Virus record (IMG/VR): IMGVR_UViG_2524023228_000003
Span: 1-64,000 of that record
From: a virus
Taxonomy: Duplodnaviria; Caudoviricetes
Direction: 5' to 3' (one strand)
Length of the DNA stretch: 64,000 nt
Shown here one piece after another: positions 4,293 through 13,270 of this stretch (positions are counted from its first letter, which is position 1; every line of letters begins with the position of its first letter). The translations under genes were made by a program, and so were the position numbers. Under the pieces are notes generated by a model. It did no database searches. It saw nothing but the letters and a program-made list of their open reading frames with translations, and had not been told where the DNA came from.

Positions 4293-4334
4293 TCGCCACC
4301 AGCATCGACGGGATACGCGTGCCCGGACGTTTGC

Positions 4335-4982
4335 ATGAGTGCAAAAGAAACAATGCAGATCAGACCCTTCCCCATTTTGCCGGCGCCGACGTTCAACCTC
4401 GCACCGCTGAAGGAGCATCACTACGGGCTCGCAAAGAGCGACCCACCGTGGGCGTTCAAGACCTACTCGTCCAAGGGCAAAGGCAAGTCGGCCGAGCAGC
4501 ACTACGACACGATGACACTCGAAGACATCTTCGAGCTGGACATCGATCGCCTCGCTCATCGCGACGGCATGTGGGTTTGGCTCTACGCCACCGCGCCGAT
4601 GTACGACCAAGCTCGTGCCTGCTTCGACAGGTGGAGCGTCACCTACGTCACCCAGGGCGTCTGGGTGAAGATGGTCAAGGACGGCAGCAAGCCGACCTTC
4701 GGCACGGGCTACGCGCTGCGCAACTGCCATGAGCCCTTCCTGATCGGGAAGATCGGCAAGCCTAAGATCCACGCACGCGACATCCGCTCTGCAATCCTCG
4801 AACCCCGCCGCGAGCACTCACGCAAGCCTGAGCAAGGCTACGTCGAGGCCGCGAAGATGGCTGGGCCTTATCCGAAGGCCGACATCTTCGCCCGCGTGCA
4901 GCGGCCCGGATGGGACGCCTGGGGCAACGAGATCAACAAGTTCGCCAACGACAACCAACCAGCCGCGGAGATTGCAGCATGA
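4335..4982 (+). CDS. MT-A70 family adenine methyltransferase
   Basis: SDPPW catalytic motif, AEQHYDTMTLEDI, FGTGYALRNCHEPFLIG, RREHSRKPE, DIFAR..PGWDAWGNE. Confidence 0.9.
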   Translation: MSAKETMQIRPFPILPAPTFNLAPLKEHHYGLAKSDPPWAFKTYSSKGKGKSAEQHYDTMTLEDIFELDIDRLAHRDGMWVWLYATAPMYDQARACFDRWSVTYVTQGVWVKMVKDGSKPTFGTGYALRNCHEPFLIGKIGKPKIHARDIRSAILEPRREHSRKPEQGYVEAAKMAGPYPKADIFARVQRPGWDAWGNEINKFANDNQPAAEIAA

Positions 4983-5263
4983 CCCAGAAGATCACGAACA
5001 TCAGCATCGTCCGCGCGGGCCCCATCGCCTTCACCGCCGTGAAGAGCGAGAGCGAGGGCGCGCGGTCCAACATCAAATTCAAAATGGTCTTCGGGGACAC
5101 CGTCCTCGCAGACATGGGTGAGGAAGCCGCGCGTTTCTTCATCTCCCGGGTGCAGGAGGCATTCGCCATCGAGCGTGGCGACGAATGGACCCGCCTCCCC
5201 ACCTACGCCGCGGTCGAAGCCGACCGCCAAAAGGTCGCAGCACGCAACGCGACCTCCAACTAA
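4979..5263 (+). CDS. Hypothetical protein
   Basis: ATGA overlap with the MT-A70 stop; MTQKITNISIVRAG start. Confidence 0.6.
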   Translation: MTQKITNISIVRAGPIAFTAVKSESEGARSNIKFKMVFGDTVLADMGEEAARFFISRVQEAFAIERGDEWTRLPTYAAVEADRQKVAARNATSN

Positions 5264-5275
5264 CAGGAGTCAACC

Positions 5276-5809
5276 TTGAGAAAACTGACCACGGCGCTCG
5301 TCGGCGCCGCGATCCTCGCTGTGTCTTTTTCGGCCGCTGAGGCCCGCCCAAGGCACCACCATCGCCATCACGCGCATCATCATCGGGTAGAGCGCGTCGT
5401 CCAGGTTGAACCGCAAGAGGAGCGTGGCTTCTTCCGCGGATTCCAGACCGGCTCTCAGGACGGCTTCTCGGACAGCAGCGGCTTCGTGCAGCGCGCTCGC
5501 CAGTTCATTGGCGACACCGCTCACGAGGTCGGCGTGCGTTCGACGTTGTGGTGCTCCGCGTTCCTCCGGAAGGTGACCGAGGCTCAGGATGTCGACGACC
5601 GCGCCAGATCCTGGGAGCGACACCGCCAGATCACCCCGCAGGTCGGAGCCGTCGTGACCATGGGCCGCCGCGGTGGCGGACACGTCGGTATCGTTTCGGG
5701 CTTCACTAAGAATGGTGATCCGATCGTCATCAGCGGCAATCACGGCGGCCGCGTTGCGGAGAGCGTTTACAAGCGCAGCCGCATCCGCGCCTGGGTTTCC
5801 CCGACCTGA
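5276..5809 (+). CDS. Exported TIGR02594-like (NlpC/CHAP-fold) cysteine peptidase
   Basis: Signal peptide, His-rich linker, LWCSAF, ARSW, PQVGAVV, GGGHVGIV, ISGNH. Confidence 0.8.
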   Translation: MRKLTTALVGAAILAVSFSAAEARPRHHHRHHAHHHRVERVVQVEPQEERGFFRGFQTGSQDGFSDSSGFVQRARQFIGDTAHEVGVRSTLWCSAFLRKVTEAQDVDDRARSWERHRQITPQVGAVVTMGRRGGGHVGIVSGFTKNGDPIVISGNHGGRVAESVYKRSRIRAWVSPT

Positions 5810-6078
5810 GAGCTGATGATGCTGAAGTTCGCAACCGAGATGCTTCGGGATGGGATGATCCGCCGACAAAAAGCCTGGCCCGTCGCGCGTCAGGGCCTGC
5901 GGATCGGACGCGGTGACGCGGGTGGCGCAGATCAATCGACCTCTTGGTCATCGAGGCTGCAGCCTTAAGGGCTATCCGCGCCAACGGCTTGGCGGCAGCA
6001 TGCCGCCACGGCCTGCGGATCGGGAGTCTCCGATTTTCCGGATTGATTGCGACTCACATATTTGCTACGCGCAAGTTG

Positions 6079-6084
6079 TATAAT
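6079..6084 (+). promoter_or_regulatory. Possible -10 box for a nearly leaderless DGQHR transcript
   Basis: Perfect TATAAT 9 nt before ATG 6093; no clear -35 or Shine-Dalgarno. Confidence 0.35.
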
Positions 6085-6092
6085 TGCACGAA

Positions 6093-7235
6093 ATGGGGAT
6101 TGCGGTGGAAACGATAAGCCGTCCGGCAGCATTGGTTCGACAAGGTTCGCTCAAACTATACTCCACCTCGCTCAAGGTCAGCGATCTAAAGCGGCCAAAC
6201 TTCTACACCATTAGCAAGCTTGACCCCGCTGATGCCGGTCCAGGCTACCAGCGTCTACTGAACGACGGACGGGCTAAGAGGCTCGCGGACTATCTTATCG
6301 ACGGACAGACTGAGCACGATGCGTTTCTGCCGACGTCGATCTTTTTGGCAACAAACAAGGACATTTCGTTCGACCCAGCAACCAACACAATCACCTTCGA
6401 CGTGAGCCAGATTGGGCCGTTCAACGTTGTTGATGGTCAGCACCGAATTGCTGGACTCGTATTGGCGGCTGAGAAGAACGCCGACATGCTGGAGTTCGAG
6501 ATTCCTGTGAACATAGCTGTCAACCTCGATGAGATCAGCCAGATGTGCCATTTTCTCATCGTCAACACGACGCAGCGGTCAGTCGATAGGGCCATCGAAC
6601 AACAGATTGTCGCGCGTTTAACCAAGATGATCGGATTAGAGAAAACACCGACGATGCCGCGTTGGATACGTCGTCAGGTGGAGAAAGGAGAAGATGCGCG
6701 AGCTTTGGCCGTGGCAAATCATTTGAACGACGAGCCAAGTTCGCCTTGGTACGGCAAAATTCGCATGGCCAACGATGAAGGTGATGGCGGCACCATTAAC
6801 CAGAAGAGCTTCATAACCTCTCTAAGGCGTCACATCTTCTCCGCTAATAACCCACTTTCAAATCCAGTCTGGGATGGAAATCGGCCGCTGATCCTTTTGA
6901 ATTATTGGAAAGCGATAATCGAGCTTTTGGTAGATGGCTCAGAGACGCAGACGGTGATCTTCAAGACGAACGGCGTGGAGTTATTCCACACTGTCTCTCC
7001 GACCGTCTTTACGCATCTTGCAGCGAAATCGGACTTCAAAAAGGACACAATCAAAGCACTCTTGAAGCGGGGCTTTGGTAATCTTCCGCCGGAACACATC
7101 GGTATGTCGCATTCAGAATGGTGGCATCGCGGCGGCGCCGCATCCGGGCTCAATCGAGGCGCGATCGGCAAGCTTGCGAATGCTCTCAGCTTGGCAATGA
7201 ACGTTCAGGAGAACGCAAGCGGCGTCCAATTGTGA
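6093..7235 (+). CDS. DGQHR-domain (DndB-like, ParB/Srx superfamily) protein
   Basis: GYQRLLNDGRAKRLADYL..FLPTSIFLA..VVDGQHRIAGL..FLIVNTTQRSV; AT-richer codon usage than the phage. Confidence 0.9.
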   Translation: MGIAVETISRPAALVRQGSLKLYSTSLKVSDLKRPNFYTISKLDPADAGPGYQRLLNDGRAKRLADYLIDGQTEHDAFLPTSIFLATNKDISFDPATNTITFDVSQIGPFNVVDGQHRIAGLVLAAEKNADMLEFEIPVNIAVNLDEISQMCHFLIVNTTQRSVDRAIEQQIVARLTKMIGLEKTPTMPRWIRRQVEKGEDARALAVANHLNDEPSSPWYGKIRMANDEGDGGTINQKSFITSLRRHIFSANNPLSNPVWDGNRPLILLNYWKAIIELLVDGSETQTVIFKTNGVELFHTVSPTVFTHLAAKSDFKKDTIKALLKRGFGNLPPEHIGMSHSEWWHRGGAASGLNRGAIGKLANALSLAMNVQENASGVQL

Positions 7236-7245
7236 GATAGGCACC

Positions 7246-7587
7246 ATGCGGGCAGAACAGTTATTCCCAAAACCGGACCAAAGGACGCGCTTCGCTTGGT
7301 CGCACCACGTAACTGTGCCCGACAAGCCAGGCTGTTACGCTCTAGTCACTTTTGGAGGAGACGTCATATACGTCGGCTTGGCTACAGGCAGCATACGGAG
7401 CCGCATGGGATCGCACTTGGATACAGAAGCGAAGCGGAAGGGAACCGATCTCGGTGTGCCGTTCTGGTTTGACTACCTTGTCGAGGACGGTGCAAAAGTT
7501 GCCGCGATAGAGCGCGGTTGGATGAATCAGTCCATACTTGCAGACGGCGAGATGCCGGCCTTAAATAAGGTGTATAGCCCAATCTAA
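7246..7587 (+). CDS. Small GIY-YIG family nuclease
   Basis: PGCYAL..IYVGLA..IRSRMGSH..IERGW..P-x-LN pattern; 10 nt downstream of the DGQHR gene. Confidence 0.8.
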   Translation: MRAEQLFPKPDQRTRFAWSHHVTVPDKPGCYALVTFGGDVIYVGLATGSIRSRMGSHLDTEAKRKGTDLGVPFWFDYLVEDGAKVAAIERGWMNQSILADGEMPALNKVYSPI

Positions 7588-7826
7588 TTTCATCATCCGC
7601 AATGCAGCTTGTACCTGCACCATGCGGCGCGTCAGTCGGTCGAAGAAGGGTATGGCAAAATAGCCTGCGAGAGGGGGCCCTATCGTGGTGGAGGCACCAA
7701 TTTGCGCCCGCGAACTCCCATACAGGGCCCGCAGTTCTTTTGCCTTCATCACAAGTCGGAGGGGCTACAGCGCGCCGACAAAGACCGGCGCTTGCATCTG
7801 ACGGATGTCGATAGATGAGTAGCGCC

Positions 7827-8105
7827 CTACCCTAACTCCTTCATGTGGTGCAGAAAATGACCGGACGTTTCTGCGCCCCCAGGTTCAATCTCGACCACTT
7901 CACCGCCCTCGGGGCGAAGGAATGACCGTAACTTGGCTCGGTCAAGCCTCCATCCAGAGGCTCGAAGACTTCTTTCCAAGGCTGTTAGGAAGGCGCGATC
8001 GGCGTTTTCATCATTCAGGTATGTGCGACGCCCTTCTTTTTCCCACTCGTCCTCGATTAACCTGTCGCCTTGTTGGACGAGGATATCATGAGTTGATACG
8101 CTCAT
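7827..8105 (-). CDS. Hypothetical acidic protein, last gene of the Dam/DGQHR operon
   Basis: ATG 4 nt after the 774-aa gene stop (MSVSTHDILV..); same AT-rich style. Confidence 0.6.
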   Translation of the reverse strand: MSVSTHDILVQQGDRLIEDEWEKEGRRTYLNDENADRAFLTALERSLRASGWRLDRAKLRSFLRPEGGEVVEIEPGGAETSGHFLHHMKELG

Positions 8106-8109
8106 TGCG

Positions 8110-10434
8110 TCAACCGCGGACTTCTCGCAAATCTTCATGACCTTGAAGAATTGTGTCAGCGAATTCCTCATGCAATTGCGTTTGCAGCCACCGATGGATC
8201 TCGTCTAAAAACGCGACTTGTTCTTCCGTGATAGGAAGGCTCTGACCTTTTGAGGCATGCATCACTGGCTTCCTCAGATCGTTTACTTCAACAAGCCACT
8301 TAGTACGGGCCTGCTTGTTTCCTTTTCCGCGAGCAAGCGGAGCTTCAAAAAGTTGCCAGTTCGCCTCAGCAATATCCCTGTAATCTAATAAATCAAAATT
8401 CTCCGCTCTCCCTCCCTTTTTTCCTCCCTCCTCGTTTATCCGGTCATCTACTTTCTTGCGGACGCTTTTCGGCACACCAGCAAACCACCAATCTGTTTCC
8501 TCATCTCCAAATTCATTCTTCAATTCTGAAAGGATTGTTGATTGTAGCACCCGCTCAATCCCTTGGAGCAGTTCGAAGGCTTGAGTTGTTGTTTGAGCTT
8601 TCTCTCGAGATAAAAATTCCTTGAGCCCAGGCGGATTGAACGTTGCGTCTAAGTTTTGGACAAACTCTTCAACGCGCCTCGTGCCGGTTGTCTGCCCTTG
8701 TATCCCTCTAAGCGATCGGAACTGGGTCATCTGTTCAGGAGTGCGCGTAGCGAAAAATTGACCAACAGCACGGCCGAAGGGCTCTAGAGCTTCAACTAGC
8801 TCTTGCGCATCAAGCTCGGACAAAGAAAGACGCTTAACAGTCTGCAAATGGTGAAAAGCGCTCCGAAGAACGTTCAAGCAGACCGTAATCCCGTCGTTCA
8901 TCGTTAAGCCGCCGCCTTCTCCAGATCCTTTCTCCCACAATTCGGAAGCTGCCGACTTTACCGAGTCAAGAAAGCCGATCAAAACAGTGACTGTACGCTT
9001 CAAAGTTGCCTGATTCTCACCGTCCCACAATGGGCCGTACTCCAGGACTTCGCCCTTCCTCGTTCGCGCGATGAACAGTCCTGTCTTTTCGAGAGCGTGA
9101 AAAATACTAGTCAAAGATATACATCTCGTCTCAGATCGCGGATCATCAGCTTTGAGAACACGGCCCAGGAGCGGAGACTTTAATTCCGAATCGAGGGCCT
9201 GAACAACTTTCGATAAGATCGCCTGCACTCGAATTTCGGGATCATCGGCATCCCAATGCAGCTCCGCATAAAGCTCTTGGAGAAGGCCTTGCTTGACCTT
9301 TCGCTGTTCGGCGTTGATGTCAACGAAAAGCCGCGCCTGCTCACTCGGTTCAAGCCCAACAAAAGCAATGACCGAAATAAGGCTCTTCTTTGCATATTGA
9401 TGATCGGCATAGGAAAACAGTCGGTGCTGACCATCAATGATCCACGCGACGCGGTAGGCTGGGCGGATCGTGAGCCAACCGAACGTAGCATTCTTGTCGT
9501 CGCCTTGCTGCTTGCCGCGGTCGAAAGACAGCCAGCGGCTCTCTGCAATATTTACAACGATATTTGTTGGGAAAATGCCTCCCTCGCTGATGTACTGCCG
9601 GATCGATCGAAGTCGAGATTTCTTCAACAAGCGCTGATAGGCGTCTATATCCGATGCTTTCCCTCTCGCTCTGTGTGAAACGAACGCAATCTTCAGGAGG
9701 TACTCGGGAGAAATGCTAAAGGAATAGCTCGTAGAACCGCCAATCTTTGCGCGGATCGCCGGTATCTTGATTTCGAGGCCGGGAATGCCGCGCCCCTGCA
9801 AAACATCAGCAAGAAATTGATATCTAGCCGCGGTCCCAACCTGAAGAATGAGCAACTCATAGTATTCCAGATCTCTTTCGTCCAGAAGCGTCACGCCGGC
9901 CGTGTTAGCTCGAATCCTATCGTTGTCCGATATGATTATCCTGGATGACCATATTGCAAAGCGAGTTACACGCTTATGGCTAGCGGGTATCTGCGCGGCA
10001 ACTGCTCGGGTAAATTTCTCCTTCAATGCAGCATGTTTCGCGAGAACGGTTGAGAAGTCCGCAAACTTCTTAGGAGTTTCGCTCGACTTACATTCAACGG
10101 CAAACGCGACTTCACCATCGATAGCCACCACATCAATTTGGTTGTCTGGGCCCTTTGGATCATTTGCGTTCAGCAGCTGAAACGCACCTCCAACCCCCGA
10201 AAGATCATTGAAGCCCATTCGATACATCAATATCCAGACGCGGTCTTCGAGCAGCTTGTCATGACTTTTAGGCTTGCTTAGGCGGGAAGTGGAAGCATTC
10301 ACTTGCGCTACAGTCCAGCCTTTTGCCAATTCCTCTGCTACAAGAGGTTCGCGGACAGTCTTGAAATCGTCAGCCTTCGCCCTTCTGTTAGCGAGCCCGC
10401 GGAGTTCATCTCGGTGGAAAATGTTGCTCAGCAT
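8110..10434 (-). CDS. 774-aa multidomain protein: PD-(D/E)XK nuclease + DGQHR + Swt1-like HEPN
   Basis: N-terminal LEDRVW..NQIDVVAIDG..VECKSS; central YQRLLKKSRL..FPTNIVVN..IIDGQHRL..FVDINAEQRKV; C-terminal IERVL..DWW..VPKSVRKK..LDYRDI..NWQLF..LRKPVMH (R-X4-H). Confidence 0.85.
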   Translation of the reverse strand: MLSNIFHRDELRGLANRRAKADDFKTVREPLVAEELAKGWTVAQVNASTSRLSKPKSHDKLLEDRVWILMYRMGFNDLSGVGGAFQLLNANDPKGPDNQIDVVAIDGEVAFAVECKSSETPKKFADFSTVLAKHAALKEKFTRAVAAQIPASHKRVTRFAIWSSRIIISDNDRIRANTAGVTLLDERDLEYYELLILQVGTAARYQFLADVLQGRGIPGLEIKIPAIRAKIGGSTSYSFSISPEYLLKIAFVSHRARGKASDIDAYQRLLKKSRLRSIRQYISEGGIFPTNIVVNIAESRWLSFDRGKQQGDDKNATFGWLTIRPAYRVAWIIDGQHRLFSYADHQYAKKSLISVIAFVGLEPSEQARLFVDINAEQRKVKQGLLQELYAELHWDADDPEIRVQAILSKVVQALDSELKSPLLGRVLKADDPRSETRCISLTSIFHALEKTGLFIARTRKGEVLEYGPLWDGENQATLKRTVTVLIGFLDSVKSAASELWEKGSGEGGGLTMNDGITVCLNVLRSAFHHLQTVKRLSLSELDAQELVEALEPFGRAVGQFFATRTPEQMTQFRSLRGIQGQTTGTRRVEEFVQNLDATFNPPGLKEFLSREKAQTTTQAFELLQGIERVLQSTILSELKNEFGDEETDWWFAGVPKSVRKKVDDRINEEGGKKGGRAENFDLLDYRDIAEANWQLFEAPLARGKGNKQARTKWLVEVNDLRKPVMHASKGQSLPITEEQVAFLDEIHRWLQTQLHEEFADTILQGHEDLREVRG

Positions 10435-11282
10435 GCCTCAGGCCTTTGGTAATTCACAGTTATGGCAAGCTCAGAGGTTTCCGTTCGAAAGTCTGAACTC
10501 GCAGCGAGGACCGAATGTCGCGGCAGCCGAACAAATTCGCCTACGTTGCGATAGAGGTCCCTGATTGATCTGTGGTTGGCATTCAGTACAAGCAGTCGAA
10601 CGCCTCTTTCTCGCGCCCGAATGATTGCTTTCGATAGTCGGACTTGATCATCCCAACTAAAGATCGCCTGATTGTATTTGAGAAAACCATTCATGTTATG
10701 TTTCACCGTGTAGGGAGGGTCGATGAATGCGAAGTCTCCCTCATCGGCGCGTTCGATCGTAGTTTCGAAGTCGCAGCAATCGATATTGATGGATTTGAGT
10801 TGTGCGGAAACCCCTTTGAAATCATCGGATGGCAATAGGACGCTATTTTTTGTACCTCGCGGCACATTGAACAGGCCCTTCTTGTTGACGCGATAGAGAC
10901 CGTTCCAACATGTGCGATTTAGGTAAATTAGCCGCGCAGCCCTGCTTGATGGCTTTGCGGGCTTGCTTGCTCTTACTTCGTAGTAGTAATCGTCCGAATG
11001 CTGCTTGCTGTGCTTTTCGAGGGCTGATTGTACCCCTTTCGGATCATCACGCAGCGCTAGGTAAGTAGCTACCAATTCTTCATTCAGATCTGAAATGATC
11101 CCACCGGACGGCCTAACGTGAAAATAGACTGCCCCGCTCCCGAGGAACGGCTCGAAATAGTTTCGAACGCCTGAGGGAATAAGATCTGGAAATCTCTGTA
11201 TGAGCCATCGCTTCCCACCAGCCCACTTTAGGAAGGGATCAAACTGCGCGTGAACGTCATGAGTTGAGCCGACCGTTGCATC
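10428..11282 (-). CDS. Dam-family (D12 class) N6-adenine DNA methyltransferase
   Basis: PFLKWAGGKRW, YFEPFLGSGAV, IYLNRTCWNGLYRVNKKGLFNVP, FIDPPY; overlaps the start of the 774-aa gene; start could be 11282 or 11315. Confidence 0.93.
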   Translation of the reverse strand, partial: DATVGSTHDVHAQFDPFLKWAGGKRWLIQRFPDLIPSGVRNYFEPFLGSGAVYFHVRPSGGIISDLNEELVATYLALRDDPKGVQSALEKHSKQHSDDYYYEVRASKPAKPSSRAARLIYLNRTCWNGLYRVNKKGLFNVPRGTKNSVLLPSDDFKGVSAQLKSINIDCCDFETTIERADEGDFAFIDPPYTVKHNMNGFLKYNQAIFSWDDQVRLSKAIIRARERGVRLLVLNANHRSIRDLYRNVGEFVRLPRHSVLAASSDFRTETSELAITVNYQRPEAC

Positions 11283-11969
11283 CATTTTCTTCTCGAGATC
11301 TCCGAGCGCGCACAACCCAGCTTTCGGAAGATTCTCTATGGGTTGGCCGACTCAATGCACCTCCTTTATCGTAGACTCGCCCCAGACGGGCAATAGGCTC
11401 TCATGTGCAACTCTGGCCTATTCCGGCCAAAATTGCGCAGCTGCCACGCGGCCGTCGCCTGCGGATTAGGTAGGCCTCATGTAGGCGCAATCGGCAAAAA
11501 TGATTGCCCGCTTGGCGCCGGTTACGCTGGAATCTTCCAGGTCCTCACCAAGTTGATCGACGCTGCCCACCATCTCAGCGGCCGGGCGCGCCGAGCGCCT
11601 GGAAGACGTTTCGATCCGGCCTCGTAGTGCTGAACCAGCGCCGTATCGAGTGGCTCTGCTGGATCATCGGGCACTGGAGTGTCTACGAGCCGTGGAGGCG
11701 GGGTCAGCGCCACTGGCTGCGGCCAAATGCCTGCTGCCGCTGCAGTGAGCTGGATCACTGGCAGGTCTCCCGTACCAAGTTCAAACCCTTGGATGTGTCA
11801 TGAACGGCTGGACCCAAGCTGCGATCGGCCCTTCGCTACGCGCGCGCGTTAGTCGTGCCCTAGACTTCTGCCAAGGGGGAACTCAAAGTTAAATACCGAA
11901 AATGCCGGTCGCGGGTTCCATCGGAAGGGCCTTGAACTCTGCTATAGTCGTGTCTGGAGAGAGGACGCC

Positions 11970-12263
11970 ATGGACCCGACAGCCGTTGTTGTAGCTCTGA
12001 TTTCAGCAGCCGCCGTAATAATTGCAGCCGTGATAAAGGCAAATGCACATCAACCACGTCGTCCATATGAACCGTACGAACCCGAAATCGTTTATCGGCA
12101 AGCTCCGGTACGGCAATCTGATGATCCGATTTGGCTCTGCGTAGCGGCCCTATGCATCTTAGCTCTCGGGTTGCTGCTCCTCACGGGGGACATCTACGGA
12201 CCTGAAGTGCCCATATTCGCGTTCGTCGCGTTTCTTTCCCTCGTGATCGCGAAGAGGCGCTAG
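11970..12263 (+). CDS. Hypothetical small membrane protein (about 3 TM), moron-like
   Basis: Three hydrophobic segments, RBS AGAGGA; convergent on the phage minus-strand genes. Confidence 0.55.
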   Translation: MDPTAVVVALISAAAVIIAAVIKANAHQPRRPYEPYEPEIVYRQAPVRQSDDPIWLCVAALCILALGLLLLTGDIYGPEVPIFAFVAFLSLVIAKRR

Positions 12264-12312
12264 TCGCCTCCGCCGCGGCAGGTTCGGGCTCAGCGTCACC
12301 CCCGGGTCAGCT

Positions 12313-12594
12313 TCATGTTGATGAGCCGCATTTCGCTTTCAACTCCTGGTCCAGGACATGGATCTGGCGCCACAGCTCCGTGATCCTCGCCTTGAGTTCT
12401 GCCTCCGTCATCGACGCCTTCGGCTCCGGGTCCGGCAGCGCGTACGCACAGTCGGCGCAGATGACAGCTCTCTTGTCCCCGATGAATGTCTTGTCCTCTT
12501 GATCCCTGCACCCTGCTCCATGGCAATGGTTCAGGTATGACCCGGGCGCCCAGCCATATCGCTGGGGCCTCGAGTCCTCTTTCCAGCGCAACAT
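12313..12594 (-). CDS. Hypothetical phage protein with Cys motifs
   Basis: TGATG coupling to the upstream kinase frame; CHGAGC..CADC. Confidence 0.65.
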   Translation of the reverse strand: MLRWKEDSRPQRYGWAPGSYLNHCHGAGCRDQEDKTFIGDKRAVICADCAYALPDPEPKASMTEAELKARITELWRQIHVLDQELKAKCGSST

Positions 12595-13270
12595 CAGCGA
12601 CCGAGCCCGGTTGCCAGCGCGAGCCCGGCGGCAGCCGCGATCGCCTTCTTCGAGTTGGCGTGGTCTGCTGCACCCGGCTGAAGTGCTGCGCCATCGCCTT
12701 GTCCAGGTCGGCGTAGAGCGTTTCCACGTCGGAGTCGTTGTGGATGATGTAGTCCGGCTGGATCAGGTCGATGCGCTCGCTCGGGTGAACGCCCCACATG
12801 ATGCCGAACTTGTCGAACAGGAACTCGCCCAGCTTGTGCTTGAACTTCGCCGGCCGCGTGCCCGGGCGCTTGATCATGATCACGAAGCCGCCGAGGCCAC
12901 GGATCGCCTTCGCCTCGTTCGGGAAGCGCACGGAGTCGTTCATGACGGACTCGCCATCGGCGATGCCGCGAGCCCAGGTGTTGGCCCACAGATCCTCGCT
13001 GATCAGGTTGCGGCCCCACTCGGTGCCGATCGTGATCTGCGCATAGCGCGAGGTGACGCCCAGGCACGGGATCACCTGCTCCTTCAGATCGCCCTCCAGG
13101 TAGCGTGTGATCTCCTCGGACGACATGCCGTTCGCCTGGAGCAGCACCGCGAGCATGGCCCGCAGCGGCTCAGCGATGTGCTTGCGGCGCACGCCGTACT
13201 TCTTCTCCAGGTACAGCGCCGCCGTGGTCTTTCCCGACTGTGCGAAGCCCGATAGGCCGATAACCGTCAT
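12594..13270 (-). CDS. Deoxynucleoside monophosphate kinase (phage type), apparent frameshift near the 3' end (about 12660)
   Basis: VIGLSGFAQSGKTT P-loop, AEPLRAM, QITIGTEWGR, DSVRFPNE, HPSE. The alternative-frame tail ANSKKAIAAAAGLALATGLGR ends in TGATG coupling at 12594. Confidence 0.85.

What the first reader, a model, noticed from the sequence alone, without database searches (positions are those of the whole stretch)
6079..11315. Candidate undescribed defence system: two DGQHR proteins + GIY-YIG + Dam methyltransferase, without phosphorothioation genes
Sequence shows a visibly AT-richer island at the junction of the two phage transcription arms, with two convergent operons. Rightward: DGQHR (383 aa) then GIY-YIG (113 aa). 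Leftward: Dam-family MTase, then PD-(D/E)XK-DGQHR-HEPN (774 aa), then a 92-aa ORF. Known: DGQHR/DndB-like domains belong to the ParB/Srx NTP-binding superfamily and are best known from phosphorothioate systems (DndB; the related motif in SspE). No dndA/C/D/E or sspA-D is in this window. Inference: m6A methylation replaces phosphorothioation as the self mark, DGQHR domains act as NTP-gated sensors, and three nuclease types (DNase, GIY-YIG, HEPN RNase) act as effectors. This would be a restriction-plus-abortive-infection hybrid carried as prophage cargo. Novelty is not verified.
Basis: partly seen in the sequence, partly recalled or inferred. Interest (0 to 1): 0.9.

Follow-up and report, generated by a model that had tools for sequence, protein, structure and literature searches.

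The report
Two separate nuclease cassettes in phage
The low-GC island in this Bradyrhizobium-type temperate phage is not one five-gene defence system; it holds two independent, widely spread and uncharacterised two-gene cassettes, one restriction-modification-like (adenine methylase plus a three-domain nuclease) and one a methylase-free sensor-plus-nuclease pair.

Summary
All five ORFs, their domains, the GC dip (0.50 against about 0.62) and the absence of dnd/dpd genes are real.

The genes do not form one system.

Cassette A is the Dam methylase plus the 774-aa PD-(D/E)XK–DGQHR/ParB–HEPN protein.
- It recurs as a tight pair in bacteria, archaea and phages: 413 loci in 185,579 species genomes.
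- Of the 80 best loci, 60 have a Dam-family gene next to the nuclease gene, 3 have MT-A70, 2 have a divergent D12 methylase and 3 have a radical-SAM gene.
- None of the 80 has the short DGQHR/GIY-YIG pair.

Cassette B is the 376-aa DGQHR protein plus the 113-aa GIY-YIG nuclease.
- The two genes are adjacent in 64 of 65 metagenome loci with room downstream, and in every genome context checked.
- None of these loci has a methylase or a 774-aa homologue nearby.

The two cassettes sit together only in this phage and one sister provirus, where an extra 1.4 kb separates them.

Best reading: A is a restriction-modification-like module with an NTP-gated nuclease. B is a methylase-independent nuclease pair that works like split GmrS/GmrD. 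I found no paper describing either cassette. Each is a new variant of a known kind. Earlier notes of this scan on the same stretch agree with the domain readings.

The parts
6105..7235 (+). Cassette B, gene 1: short DGQHR (ParB/Srx-fold) protein, 376 aa from GTG 6105. The maximal ORF starts at TTG 6084.
   Evidence: TIGR03187 at 99.6 bits. QR, DGQHR and FxxxN motifs are invariant. In the AF2 model, residues 8-160 match PadC, pNOB8 ParB, KorB and sulfiredoxin at Z 5.2-6.9. More than 1900 homologues, 51-96% identical. Against the sister phage there are 105 synonymous and 7 non-synonymous codon changes.
7246..7587 (+). Cassette B, gene 2: minimal GIY-YIG nuclease, 113 aa, 10 nt after gene 1.
   Evidence: Profile A3 hits UvrC N-terminal domain at 2e-7, then EndoII, I-TevI and SLX1. 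Catalytic Y31, Y42, R53, H57, E89 and N107 are invariant. It lies directly downstream of the DGQHR gene in 64 of 65 metagenome loci with room, and in 6 of 6 genome loci.
7827..8105 (-). Small ORF, 92 aa, 5 nt after the 774-aa gene. No family; specific to this phage lineage.
   Evidence: No Pfam, NCBIfam, PADLOC or PHROG match. Conserved only in the sister phage, with an excess of third-position changes (9/8/23). Absent from all 80 bacterial loci.
8110..10434 (-). Cassette A, effector: 774-aa PD-(D/E)XK nuclease - DGQHR/ParB-like domain - HEPN-like domain.
   Evidence: More than 1100 full-length homologues. 413 loci in species genomes.
10428..11315 (-). Cassette A, modification gene: Dam-family N6-adenine DNA methyltransferase. 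Its stop overlaps the start of the 774-aa gene by 7 nt.
   Evidence: TIGR00571 at 224 bits; Pfam MethyltransfD12 at 1.5e-47. DPPY and FxGxG motifs. AAGGAGG lies 5 nt before TTG 11315.
5813..12430 (.). Variable region at the junction of the phage arms. Backbone homology to BDU-MI-1 and to the sister phage stops at about 5812 and resumes at about 12431.
   Evidence: blastn of window 5000-13000 against L001, L089 and L090; GC profile.

Best explanation
The island is accessory cargo of a temperate BDU-MI-1-like phage. It is made of two autonomous, horizontally mobile two-gene cassettes lying tail to tail, plus one lineage-specific small ORF.

Cassette A (leftward) works like a restriction-modification module.
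- The Dam-family enzyme puts N6-methyladenine on resident DNA. The enzyme class is shown; the site is unknown.
- The translationally coupled 774-aa protein attacks DNA that lacks the mark, using its PD-(D/E)XK domain (inferred).
- Its DGQHR/ParB-fold domain acts as an NTP-binding switch or DNA clamp that licenses cleavage. This is inferred from ParB, SspE, GmrSD and the ATP/GTP binding of a DndB-like protein.
- The HEPN-like C-terminus, with its invariant R-x4-H, acts as a second RNase-type effector or as a dimerisation/regulatory module (inferred).

Cassette B (rightward) needs no methylase.
- The 376-aa DGQHR protein is the DNA/NTP-sensing subunit.
- The 113-aa GIY-YIG protein is its nuclease in trans.
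- This is a functional analogue of split GmrS/GmrD or of SspE, most likely aimed at foreign (perhaps modified) DNA (inferred).

In the lysogen both cassettes would exclude other phages or plasmids.
For: Independence of the cassettes:
- none of 80 loci of cassette A has the cassette B genes.
- cassette B is intact in about 60 unrelated contexts, with no methylase or 774-aa homologue within 5 kb.
- in the sister phage an extra 1.4 kb lies between the two cassettes.

Restriction-modification logic of A:
- Adjacent Dam in 60 of 80 loci; in 52 of these it lies immediately upstream on the same strand.
- MT-A70 in 3 loci and a divergent D12 methylase in 2. A radical-SAM gene with CxxxCxxC in 3 loci and in viral contig L091.
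- On the tree of the nuclease, partner type or arrangement changes at least 17 times while adjacency is kept. The window's nearest relatives (68-69% identity) use MT-A70.
- Viral contigs L092-L095 also have Dam next to the gene.
- The nuclease fold has Z 10-11 to AF1548, FokI, N.BspD6I and Can2, with invariant D106/E114/K116.
- Five isolate genomes that carry the pair have no dndC.

Cassette B:
- The GIY-YIG catalytic residues are invariant.
- ParB/Srx fold; SspE and BrxU appear among the weaker structural matches.
- Contexts include ThsB-TIR, AbiEii, HipA and ParE neighbourhoods.

Foreign origin:
- Cassette B is at GC 0.50-0.53 in hosts of 0.59-0.67.
- Neither cassette has a strong PHROG match.
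- The phage's TTGC-N6-GCAA motif is absent from the island.

A DndB-like protein binds ATP and GTP in vitro (bioRxiv 10.1101/2025.10.10.680097).
Against: - There is no functional evidence of any kind: cleavage, methylation site, NTP dependence and phage resistance are all untested.
- Frequent swapping of the methylase family sits awkwardly with a sequence-specific nuclease that must match its methylase.
- Two intact 774-aa homologues with full flanks (L019, L066) have no modification gene nearby.
- The HEPN assignment is moderate: Pfam HEPN_Swt1 at 19.7 bits against a cut-off of 27.5, and Z 6.6-8.3 on a helical domain.
- Cassette B often sits alone between housekeeping genes, which does not look like a defence island.
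- A second short DGQHR gene lies near 774-aa homologues in 6 of 80 loci. Some cooperation between long and short DGQHR proteins therefore cannot be excluded.
Confidence: 0.6

Rival explanations
1. One reading: all five genes form one integrated system. m6A replaces phosphorothioation as the self mark, both DGQHR proteins act as sensors, and three nucleases act as effectors.
For: The two cassettes are adjacent in this phage and in its sister provirus. There both are 88-89% identical at the DNA level while the backbone is only 73% identical. In 6 of 80 loci a second, different short DGQHR gene lies near a 774-aa homologue.
Against: There is no co-occurrence in 80 + 80 + 6 independent loci. Each cassette is complete and under purifying selection on its own. 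The sister phage has 1.4 kb of other ORFs between the two. The 92-aa ORF is lineage-specific.
Confidence: 0.07
2. The 774-aa protein is not a methylation-sensitive restriction nuclease. It is either a DndB-like NTP-dependent regulator of the methylase, or a toxin-like abortive-infection effector for which the modification gene acts as the antidote of an addiction module.
For: DndB is a transcriptional regulator modulated by ATP (PMC4507180, cited). Partner enzymes of unrelated chemistry (Dam, MT-A70, radical SAM) are tolerated; an addiction or regulatory logic explains this more easily than matched sequence specificity does. HEPN domains are typical of abortive-infection and toxin modules (PMC3632139).
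Against: The nuclease triad and the R-x4-H motif are invariant in all 24 aligned homologues. That argues for catalysis rather than regulation alone. The tight, often overlapping methylase-nuclease operon is the classical restriction-modification layout.
Confidence: 0.15
3. Cassette B is a selfish mobile nuclease cassette: a two-part homing-type endonuclease or an addiction pair, rather than a defence system.
For: It is a 1.5-kb low-GC cassette with sharp boundaries, dropped into about 60 unrelated contexts across phyla, often between housekeeping genes and with no integrase nearby. GIY-YIG is a classical homing-endonuclease fold (I-TevI is hit). The bare 113-aa catalytic domain needs a DNA-binding partner.
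Against: Independent loci share no conserved flanking target or terminal repeats. Several copies lie among TIR, AbiE and toxin-antitoxin genes. No intron or intein context is seen.
Confidence: 0.12
4. The phage uses cassette A offensively. It methylates its own DNA and degrades the unmethylated host chromosome during lytic growth.
For: The relatives are T5-like in gene content (A1 protein, dNMP kinase), a group known to destroy host DNA. The backbone carries a second methylase at 4335-4982.
Against: The same cassette is chromosomal in hundreds of bacterial and archaeal species. The closest sequenced phage, BDU-MI-1, lacks it. The sister record is a provirus, in which host DNA would itself be methylated.
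Confidence: 0.06

Closest known systems
Type II restriction-modification systems with a Dam-class methylase (for example DpnII or MboI type)
   Same: A separate adenine methylase and a PD-(D/E)XK nuclease sit in one tight operon. The unit is a mobile two-gene cassette.
   Different: The nuclease carries a DGQHR/ParB-fold putative NTPase and a HEPN-like domain, neither of which is known in Type II enzymes. The partner methylase family is swapped repeatedly and is even replaced by a radical-SAM gene.
GmrSD / BrxU / SspE (DUF262-DUF1524 enzymes; GmrS + GmrD when split)
   Same: A ParB/Srx-fold domain with a D-G-Q-x-R motif is coupled to a nuclease. The NTP-stimulated logic is similar, and a split two-gene form exists. 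Cassette B needs no methylase.
   Different: The motif is DGQHR, not DGQQR (Pfam GmrSD_N reaches only 15 bits). The nuclease is GIY-YIG (B) or PD-(D/E)XK (A), not the HNH-type DUF1524. Cassette A is linked to a methylase, unlike Type IV enzymes.
DndB (Dnd phosphorothioation) and DpdB (7-deazaguanine Dpd system)
   Same: They share the DGQHR domain. Public annotation calls the 774-aa family 'DndB'.
   Different: Scores are far below the equivalog cut-offs. No dndC, dndD or TGT is found in the phage, and no dndC in five host genomes that carry cassette A. Extra nuclease and HEPN domains are present.
COG1479/DGQHR fusions noted by Makarova et al. 2013 (PMC3632139)
   Same: That survey states that ParB-like DGQHR domains are fused to PD-(D/E)xK, HNH and HEPN domains and are linked to restriction-modification loci.
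   Different: It makes only a generic statement. I found no description of this two-gene family, its methylase swapping or the DGQHR + GIY-YIG pair.
PADLOC candidate PDC-M34 (subunit B)
   Same: The C-terminal 120 residues of the 774-aa protein match PDC-M34B at 6e-11.
   Different: Only a domain-level match to a 185-aa protein. No PDC-M34A partner is present and no literature on it was found.

Membership tests
DGQHR domain family (TIGR03187 / Pfam DndB PF14072) | Score above the curated cut-off, with QR, DGQHR and FxxxN motifs | tested here: met
   99.6 and 146.2 bits against a cut-off of 58.85. Motifs Q49R50 / D110-R114 / F150..N154 and Q267R268 / D334-R338 / F370..N374 are invariant.
DndB of the Dnd phosphorothioation system | Equivalog score (TIGR03233, cut-off 328 bits) | tested here: not met
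   16.1 bits for the short protein; no match for the long one.
DndB of the Dnd phosphorothioation system | Linked dndC / dndD genes | tested here: not met
   No dndC or dndD in the 74.9-kb record. No dndC in the complete sister provirus or in five isolate genomes that carry cassette A.
DpdB of the Dpd 7-deazaguanine system | Equivalog score (NF041060, cut-off 300 bits) and a DpdA/TGT partner | tested here: not met
   50.1 and 91 bits. No TGT-family gene in the record.
Dam-family DNA adenine methyltransferase | TIGR00571 above cut-off; DPPY and FxGxG motifs | tested here: met
   224 bits against 114.85. FIDPPYT and EPFLGSGAV are present.
Type II restriction-modification system | Nuclease gene adjacent to a cognate DNA methylase, conserved across genomes | tested here: met
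   65 of 80 loci have an m6A methylase directly adjacent; also viral contigs L092-L095.
Type II restriction-modification system | PD-(D/E)XK fold with catalytic D...(D/E)XK | tested here: met
   Z 10.3-11.0 to AF1548, N.BspD6I, R.BspD6I small subunit and FokI. D106, E114 and K116 are invariant.
Type II restriction-modification system | Nuclease and methylase recognise the same site; methylation blocks cleavage | not testable with these tools
   Needs a methylome and an in vitro cleavage assay.
GmrSD / SspE (DUF262-DUF1524) | DUF262 (GmrSD_N) domain above cut-off | tested here: not met
   15.1 bits against a cut-off of 33.2 for the short protein. Structural matches to SspE (Z 4.4) and BrxU (Z 3.6) are weak.
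GmrSD / SspE (DUF262-DUF1524) | C-terminal DUF1524 His-Me (HNH-type) nuclease | tested here: not met
   No such Pfam match in any of the five proteins. The nucleases present are GIY-YIG and PD-(D/E)XK.
GIY-YIG (URI) nuclease superfamily | Homology to known members and conserved Y, Y, R, H/Y, E, N | tested here: met
   Pfam is below cut-off (17.3 against 22.6), but profile A3 hits UvrC N-terminal domain at 2e-7, EndoII, I-TevI and SLX1. Y31, Y42, R53, H57, E89 and N107 are invariant.
HEPN superfamily | R-x4-6-H motif | tested here: met
   R721 and H726 are invariant in 24 homologues.
HEPN superfamily | HEPN fold or family match | tested here: inconclusive
   HEPN_Swt1 at 19.7 bits against a cut-off of 27.5. 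Z 8.3 to AbiF and 6.6 to AF0298 and Csm6, on a helical domain. PADLOC PDC-M34B at 6e-11.
PADLOC candidate system PDC-M34 | Both subunits A and B present | tested here: inconclusive
   Only a partial match to subunit B, inside the 774-aa protein. No protein of the island matches subunit A.

The most novel reading that the evidence does not exclude
The 774-aa family defines a new class of modification-guided immunity. One nuclease-ParB-HEPN effector is licensed by NTP and reads the presence of whatever mark its neighbour makes: m6A from Dam, from MT-A70 or from a divergent D12 enzyme. In the methylase-less branches that mark would be a so far unknown DNA modification installed by a radical-SAM enzyme. 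Short DGQHR proteins would similarly be a modular sensor that plugs into different small effectors: GIY-YIG here, a membrane protein elsewhere.
Probability: 0.2. Interest if true: 0.8.

Novelty: new variant of a known kind. Interest (0 to 1): 0.5.

Why it matters
Both cassettes are common and experimentally untouched. Cassette A alone is in 413 of about 185,000 species genomes, across bacteria, archaea and phages. Public annotation labels it 'DNA sulfur modification protein DndB', which is misleading because no phosphorothioation genes accompany it.

Cassette A would add a ParB-fold NTP switch and a HEPN domain to the repertoire of restriction enzymes. Repeated swapping of its modification partner, including radical-SAM genes, makes the question 'how does a nuclease stay matched to its mark?' directly testable.

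Cassette B would be a GIY-YIG counterpart of GmrSD/SspE.

For phage biology, the island shows a hot spot at the junction of the arms where such cassettes are exchanged faster than the backbone diverges.

Tried and rejected
- Phage GenBank collection: DNA of the island has no match even in distant mode. Only the backbone matches BDU-MI-1.
- Named PADLOC systems: none. Only DpdB/DndB domain-level hits and PDC-M34B.
- Profile of the 774-aa family against PDB sequences: only chance-level hits. Foldseek on the whole models: nothing at E <= 0.001. Domain matches came from VIA-align.
- Fused DGQHR-GIY-YIG proteins as a 'Rosetta stone': the longer homologues of the DGQHR protein are N-terminal extensions, not fusions. 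The search for longer relatives of the GIY-YIG protein gave one unrelated 318-aa hit.
- Terminal repeats or a common insertion target for cassette B: independent loci do not share flanks.
- GATC avoidance as a clue to the methylase site: GATC observed/expected is 1.05 in the window. Only CTAG is depleted, at 0.39.
- Disrupted nuclease genes beside an intact methylase (L053, L063, L065, L072, L082) would fit restriction-modification logic. Four of the five come from MAGs labelled MFD, and I could not exclude assembly errors as the cause of their frameshifts, so I give this little weight. L065 has a real insertion of about 870 nt.
- ESM Atlas look-up: the service could not be reached, twice.
- Literature: searches for DGQHR, DndB-like, PDC-M34, DndB+HEPN+methyltransferase and GIY-YIG+DndB found no description of either cassette. 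REBASE and the current DefenseFinder models could not be consulted.
Full report
**What is in the sequence**

GC drops from about 0.62 in the flanks to 0.49-0.53 between 6000 and 11500.

The window is the first 64 kb of a 74.9-kb IMG/VR virus record, estimated 62% complete. Its only relative in the phage collection is Bradyrhizobium phage BDU-MI-1 (121 kb). That match covers the backbone but not the island. In BDU-MI-1 the rightward and leftward gene arms converge at the homologous position.

Backbone homology ends near 5812 and resumes near 12431. The island therefore occupies a variable spot at the junction of the arms.

**Domains**

- The first gene is a DGQHR-domain protein (TIGR03187, 99.6 bits; cut-off 58.85). 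Homologues and the sister phage begin at GTG 6105, giving 376 aa.
- The 113-aa protein is below Pfam's GIY-YIG cut-off.
  - A profile of 19 homologues finds only GIY-YIG proteins in the PDB: UvrC N-terminal domain at 2e-7, T4 endonuclease II, I-TevI and SLX1.
  - The catalytic Tyr, Tyr, Arg, His, Glu and Asn are invariant.
- The 295-aa protein is a Dam-family methylase (224 bits against 114.85) with FxGxG and DPPY motifs.
- The 774-aa protein folds with mean pLDDT 82. Alignment against PDB representatives gives three domains:
  - Residues 1-215: PD-(D/E)XK nuclease. AF1548 Z 11.0, N.BspD6I 10.6, FokI 10.3, Can2/Card1/Cdn1 about 10.
  - Residues 232-513: ParB/Srx-like. PadC 7.6, pNOB8 ParB 6.9, KorB 6.7, sulfiredoxin 6.4.
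  - Residues 611-763: HEPN-like. AbiF 8.3, AF0298 and Csm6 6.6.
- In 24 homologues D106, E114-C115-K116, D334-G-Q-H-R338 and R721...H726 are invariant.
- The HEPN call is the weakest. Pfam HEPN_Swt1 reaches 19.7 bits against a cut-off of 27.5, and PADLOC PDC-M34B gives 6e-11.

**No phosphorothioation or deazaguanine machinery**

dndC, dndD and TGT/DpdA are absent from the record. dndC is also absent from the complete sister provirus. Five isolate genomes that carry the methylase + 774-aa pair have no dndC above cut-off. Both DGQHR proteins score far below the DndB and DpdB equivalog cut-offs.

**Cassette A is a conserved pair**

The 774-aa protein has more than 1100 full-length relatives and 413 loci in one-genome-per-species data. 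These span Acidobacteriota, Chloroflexota, Bacillota, Bacteroidota, Pseudomonadota and archaea.

In the best 80 loci the neighbour of the nuclease gene is as follows:

| Neighbour | Loci |
|---|---|
| Dam-family gene, directly adjacent (52 of these immediately upstream, same strand, as in the window) | 60 |
| MT-A70 methylase | 3 |
| Divergent D12 methylase | 2 |
| Gene of about 400 aa with the radical-SAM CxxxCxxC motif | 3 |
| None, contig flank truncated | 6 |
| None, distant 33%-identity branch (L075, L077, L078, L079); these have radical-SAM-like genes nearby | 4 |
| None, full flanks, nothing found (L019, L066) | 2 |

Viral contigs repeat the pattern.

On a maximum-likelihood tree of the nuclease, partner type or arrangement changes at least 17 times. 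The window's protein sits in a well-supported clade of four rows. Two of them use MT-A70 and one has Dam downstream. The tree cuts across taxonomy, for example a Thorarchaeota copy next to a Dehalococcoidales copy, which indicates frequent transfer.

None of these 80 loci contains a homologue of the 376-aa DGQHR protein's family, the GIY-YIG gene or the 92-aa ORF.

**Cassette B is a different conserved pair**

- The 376-aa protein has about 1900 relatives, very conserved: mean column identity is 83% among those above 70% identity.
- In six genome loci (three contexts) the GIY-YIG gene follows within about 10 nt, even where gene callers missed it.
- In 80 metagenome loci it follows within 0-54 nt in 64 of the 65 that have room. 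The exception has a 230-nt gap between the two matches.
- This holds down to 51% identity for the DGQHR protein and about 30% for the nuclease.
- None of these loci has a Dam, MT-A70 or D12 methylase or a 774-aa homologue within 5 kb.
- Neighbourhoods vary. Some are housekeeping. Others hold ThsB-TIR, AbiEii, HipA, ParE or DUF4145 genes.
- The cassette is at GC 0.50-0.53 in hosts of 0.59-0.67, and DNA homology stops at the ends of the two ORFs.
- Independent loci share no flanking repeats or target sequence.

**The only place where both cassettes meet**

The only other co-occurrence is a 121.9-kb sister record (IMGVR_UViG_2927464213_000002), classed as a provirus and 100% complete.

- There the cassettes are 88-89% identical to the window at the DNA level, while the flanking backbone is only 73% identical.
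- About 1.4 kb of extra sequence, with ORFs of 285 and 132 aa that match no family, lies between them.
- Codon changes between the two phages are overwhelmingly synonymous: 105 against 7 for the 376-aa gene and 201 against 32 for the 774-aa gene.
- The 92-aa ORF shows a coding-like third-position excess but exists only in these two phages.
- The phage's own TTGC-N6-GCAA motif occurs 7 times in the window against 1.1 expected, and never inside the island.
- A perfect TATAAT sits 20 nt upstream of GTG 6105, and AAGGAGG precedes the methylase start.

These features fit self-contained imported cassettes.

**Mechanism, with what is shown and what is inferred**

Shown:
- Two separately conserved gene pairs.
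- The enzyme classes of all four proteins.
- Conservation of catalytic residues.
- The obligatory neighbourhood of cassette A with a DNA-modifying gene.

Inferred for cassette A:
- The methylase marks resident DNA.
- The 774-aa protein cuts unmarked DNA with its PD-(D/E)XK domain.
- The DGQHR domain acts as an NTP switch or clamp. This is by analogy with ParB CTPases, with the NTP-stimulated GmrSD, BrxU and SspE (PMC12707154; PMC4619093), and with ATP/GTP binding by a DndB-like protein (bioRxiv 10.1101/2025.10.10.680097).
- HEPN acts as a second, RNA-directed effector or as a regulatory module.

Inferred for cassette B:
- It is a sensor subunit plus a trans-acting GIY-YIG nuclease, a functional analogue of split GmrS/GmrD.

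One point is unexplained. If cassette A is sequence-specific, it is unclear how the nuclease stays matched through repeated changes of methylase family and even of enzyme chemistry.

**Comparison with what is known**

Makarova et al. 2013 (PMC3632139) already noted that DGQHR/COG1479 ParB-like domains are fused to PD-(D/E)xK, HNH and HEPN domains and are linked to restriction-modification loci. Searches of the held literature found no description of either two-gene family. PADLOC 2.0 has no model for them beyond domain-level hits. REBASE could not be consulted.

I therefore class both cassettes as new variants of known kinds: restriction-modification, and GmrSD-like nucleases. Neither is categorically new.

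**Verdict**

- Observation: confirmed.
- Interpretation: partly supported. The methylase-nuclease link, the absence of phosphorothioation genes and the prophage-cargo reading hold. The five-gene unity does not.
- Interest is moderate. The families are abundant, uncharacterised and mis-annotated, and the partner swapping, including radical-SAM genes, is an interesting lead. Everything functional remains inference.

Noticed in passing
L011:2971-4218, L037:10388-11629, L039:4582-5751, L091:8345-9523; also L075:13652-15238 (-), L078:5358-6431: Where homologues of the 774-aa protein lack an adjacent adenine methylase, a radical-SAM-type gene takes its place or lies nearby. CxxxCxxC is present, with weak B12-binding/radical-SAM family hits. 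The four genes of about 400 aa are 59-62% identical to each other. This may be an alternative DNA mark made by a radical-SAM enzyme.
   Followed up: partly
L018:10404-12066, L075:10229-11979, L079:10217-11923: Directly after the 774-aa homologue lies a 175-210-aa hydrophobic (membrane-like) protein followed by a second short DGQHR protein (370-380 aa; about 25% identical to the window's 376-aa protein). Short DGQHR proteins thus pair with different small partners. In L018 this sits beside Dam + nuclease and a PDC-S41 gene.
   Followed up: partly
L075:2007-7728: The distant (33% identity) branch of the 774-aa family in Gallionella and Sterolibacterium MAGs lies next to Tn7-like genes (Mu-transposase C-terminal domain, TniB, TniQ/TnsD). 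It is probably transposon cargo, together with a HATPase_c_3 protein of 521 aa.
   Followed up: partly
L089:7510-9142 (sister provirus IMGVR_UViG_2927464213_000002): The sister phage has about 1.4 kb more DNA between the two cassettes, with ORFs of 285 and 132 aa that match no PHROG family. Both cassettes are 88-89% identical between the phages while the backbone is 73% identical. This suggests recent exchange at this hot spot.
   Followed up: partly
window 4331-4982: The phage backbone encodes its own DNA methyltransferase (215 aa, phrog_359 at 7.5e-63; annotated as adenine-specific in BDU-MI-1). One copy of the palindromic TTGC-N6-GCAA motif overlaps its start. The motif occurs 7 times in the window against 1.1 expected.
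   Followed up: partly
window 1-64000: CTAG is strongly depleted (observed/expected 0.39; 32 sites against 82 expected). GATC is not depleted (1.05).
   Followed up: no
P0003, P0027 and many others: JGI annotation names many members of the 774-aa family 'DNA sulfur modification protein DndB'. Five isolate genomes with the cassette have no dndC, so the name is probably a mis-annotation carried over from the shared DGQHR domain.
   Followed up: partly
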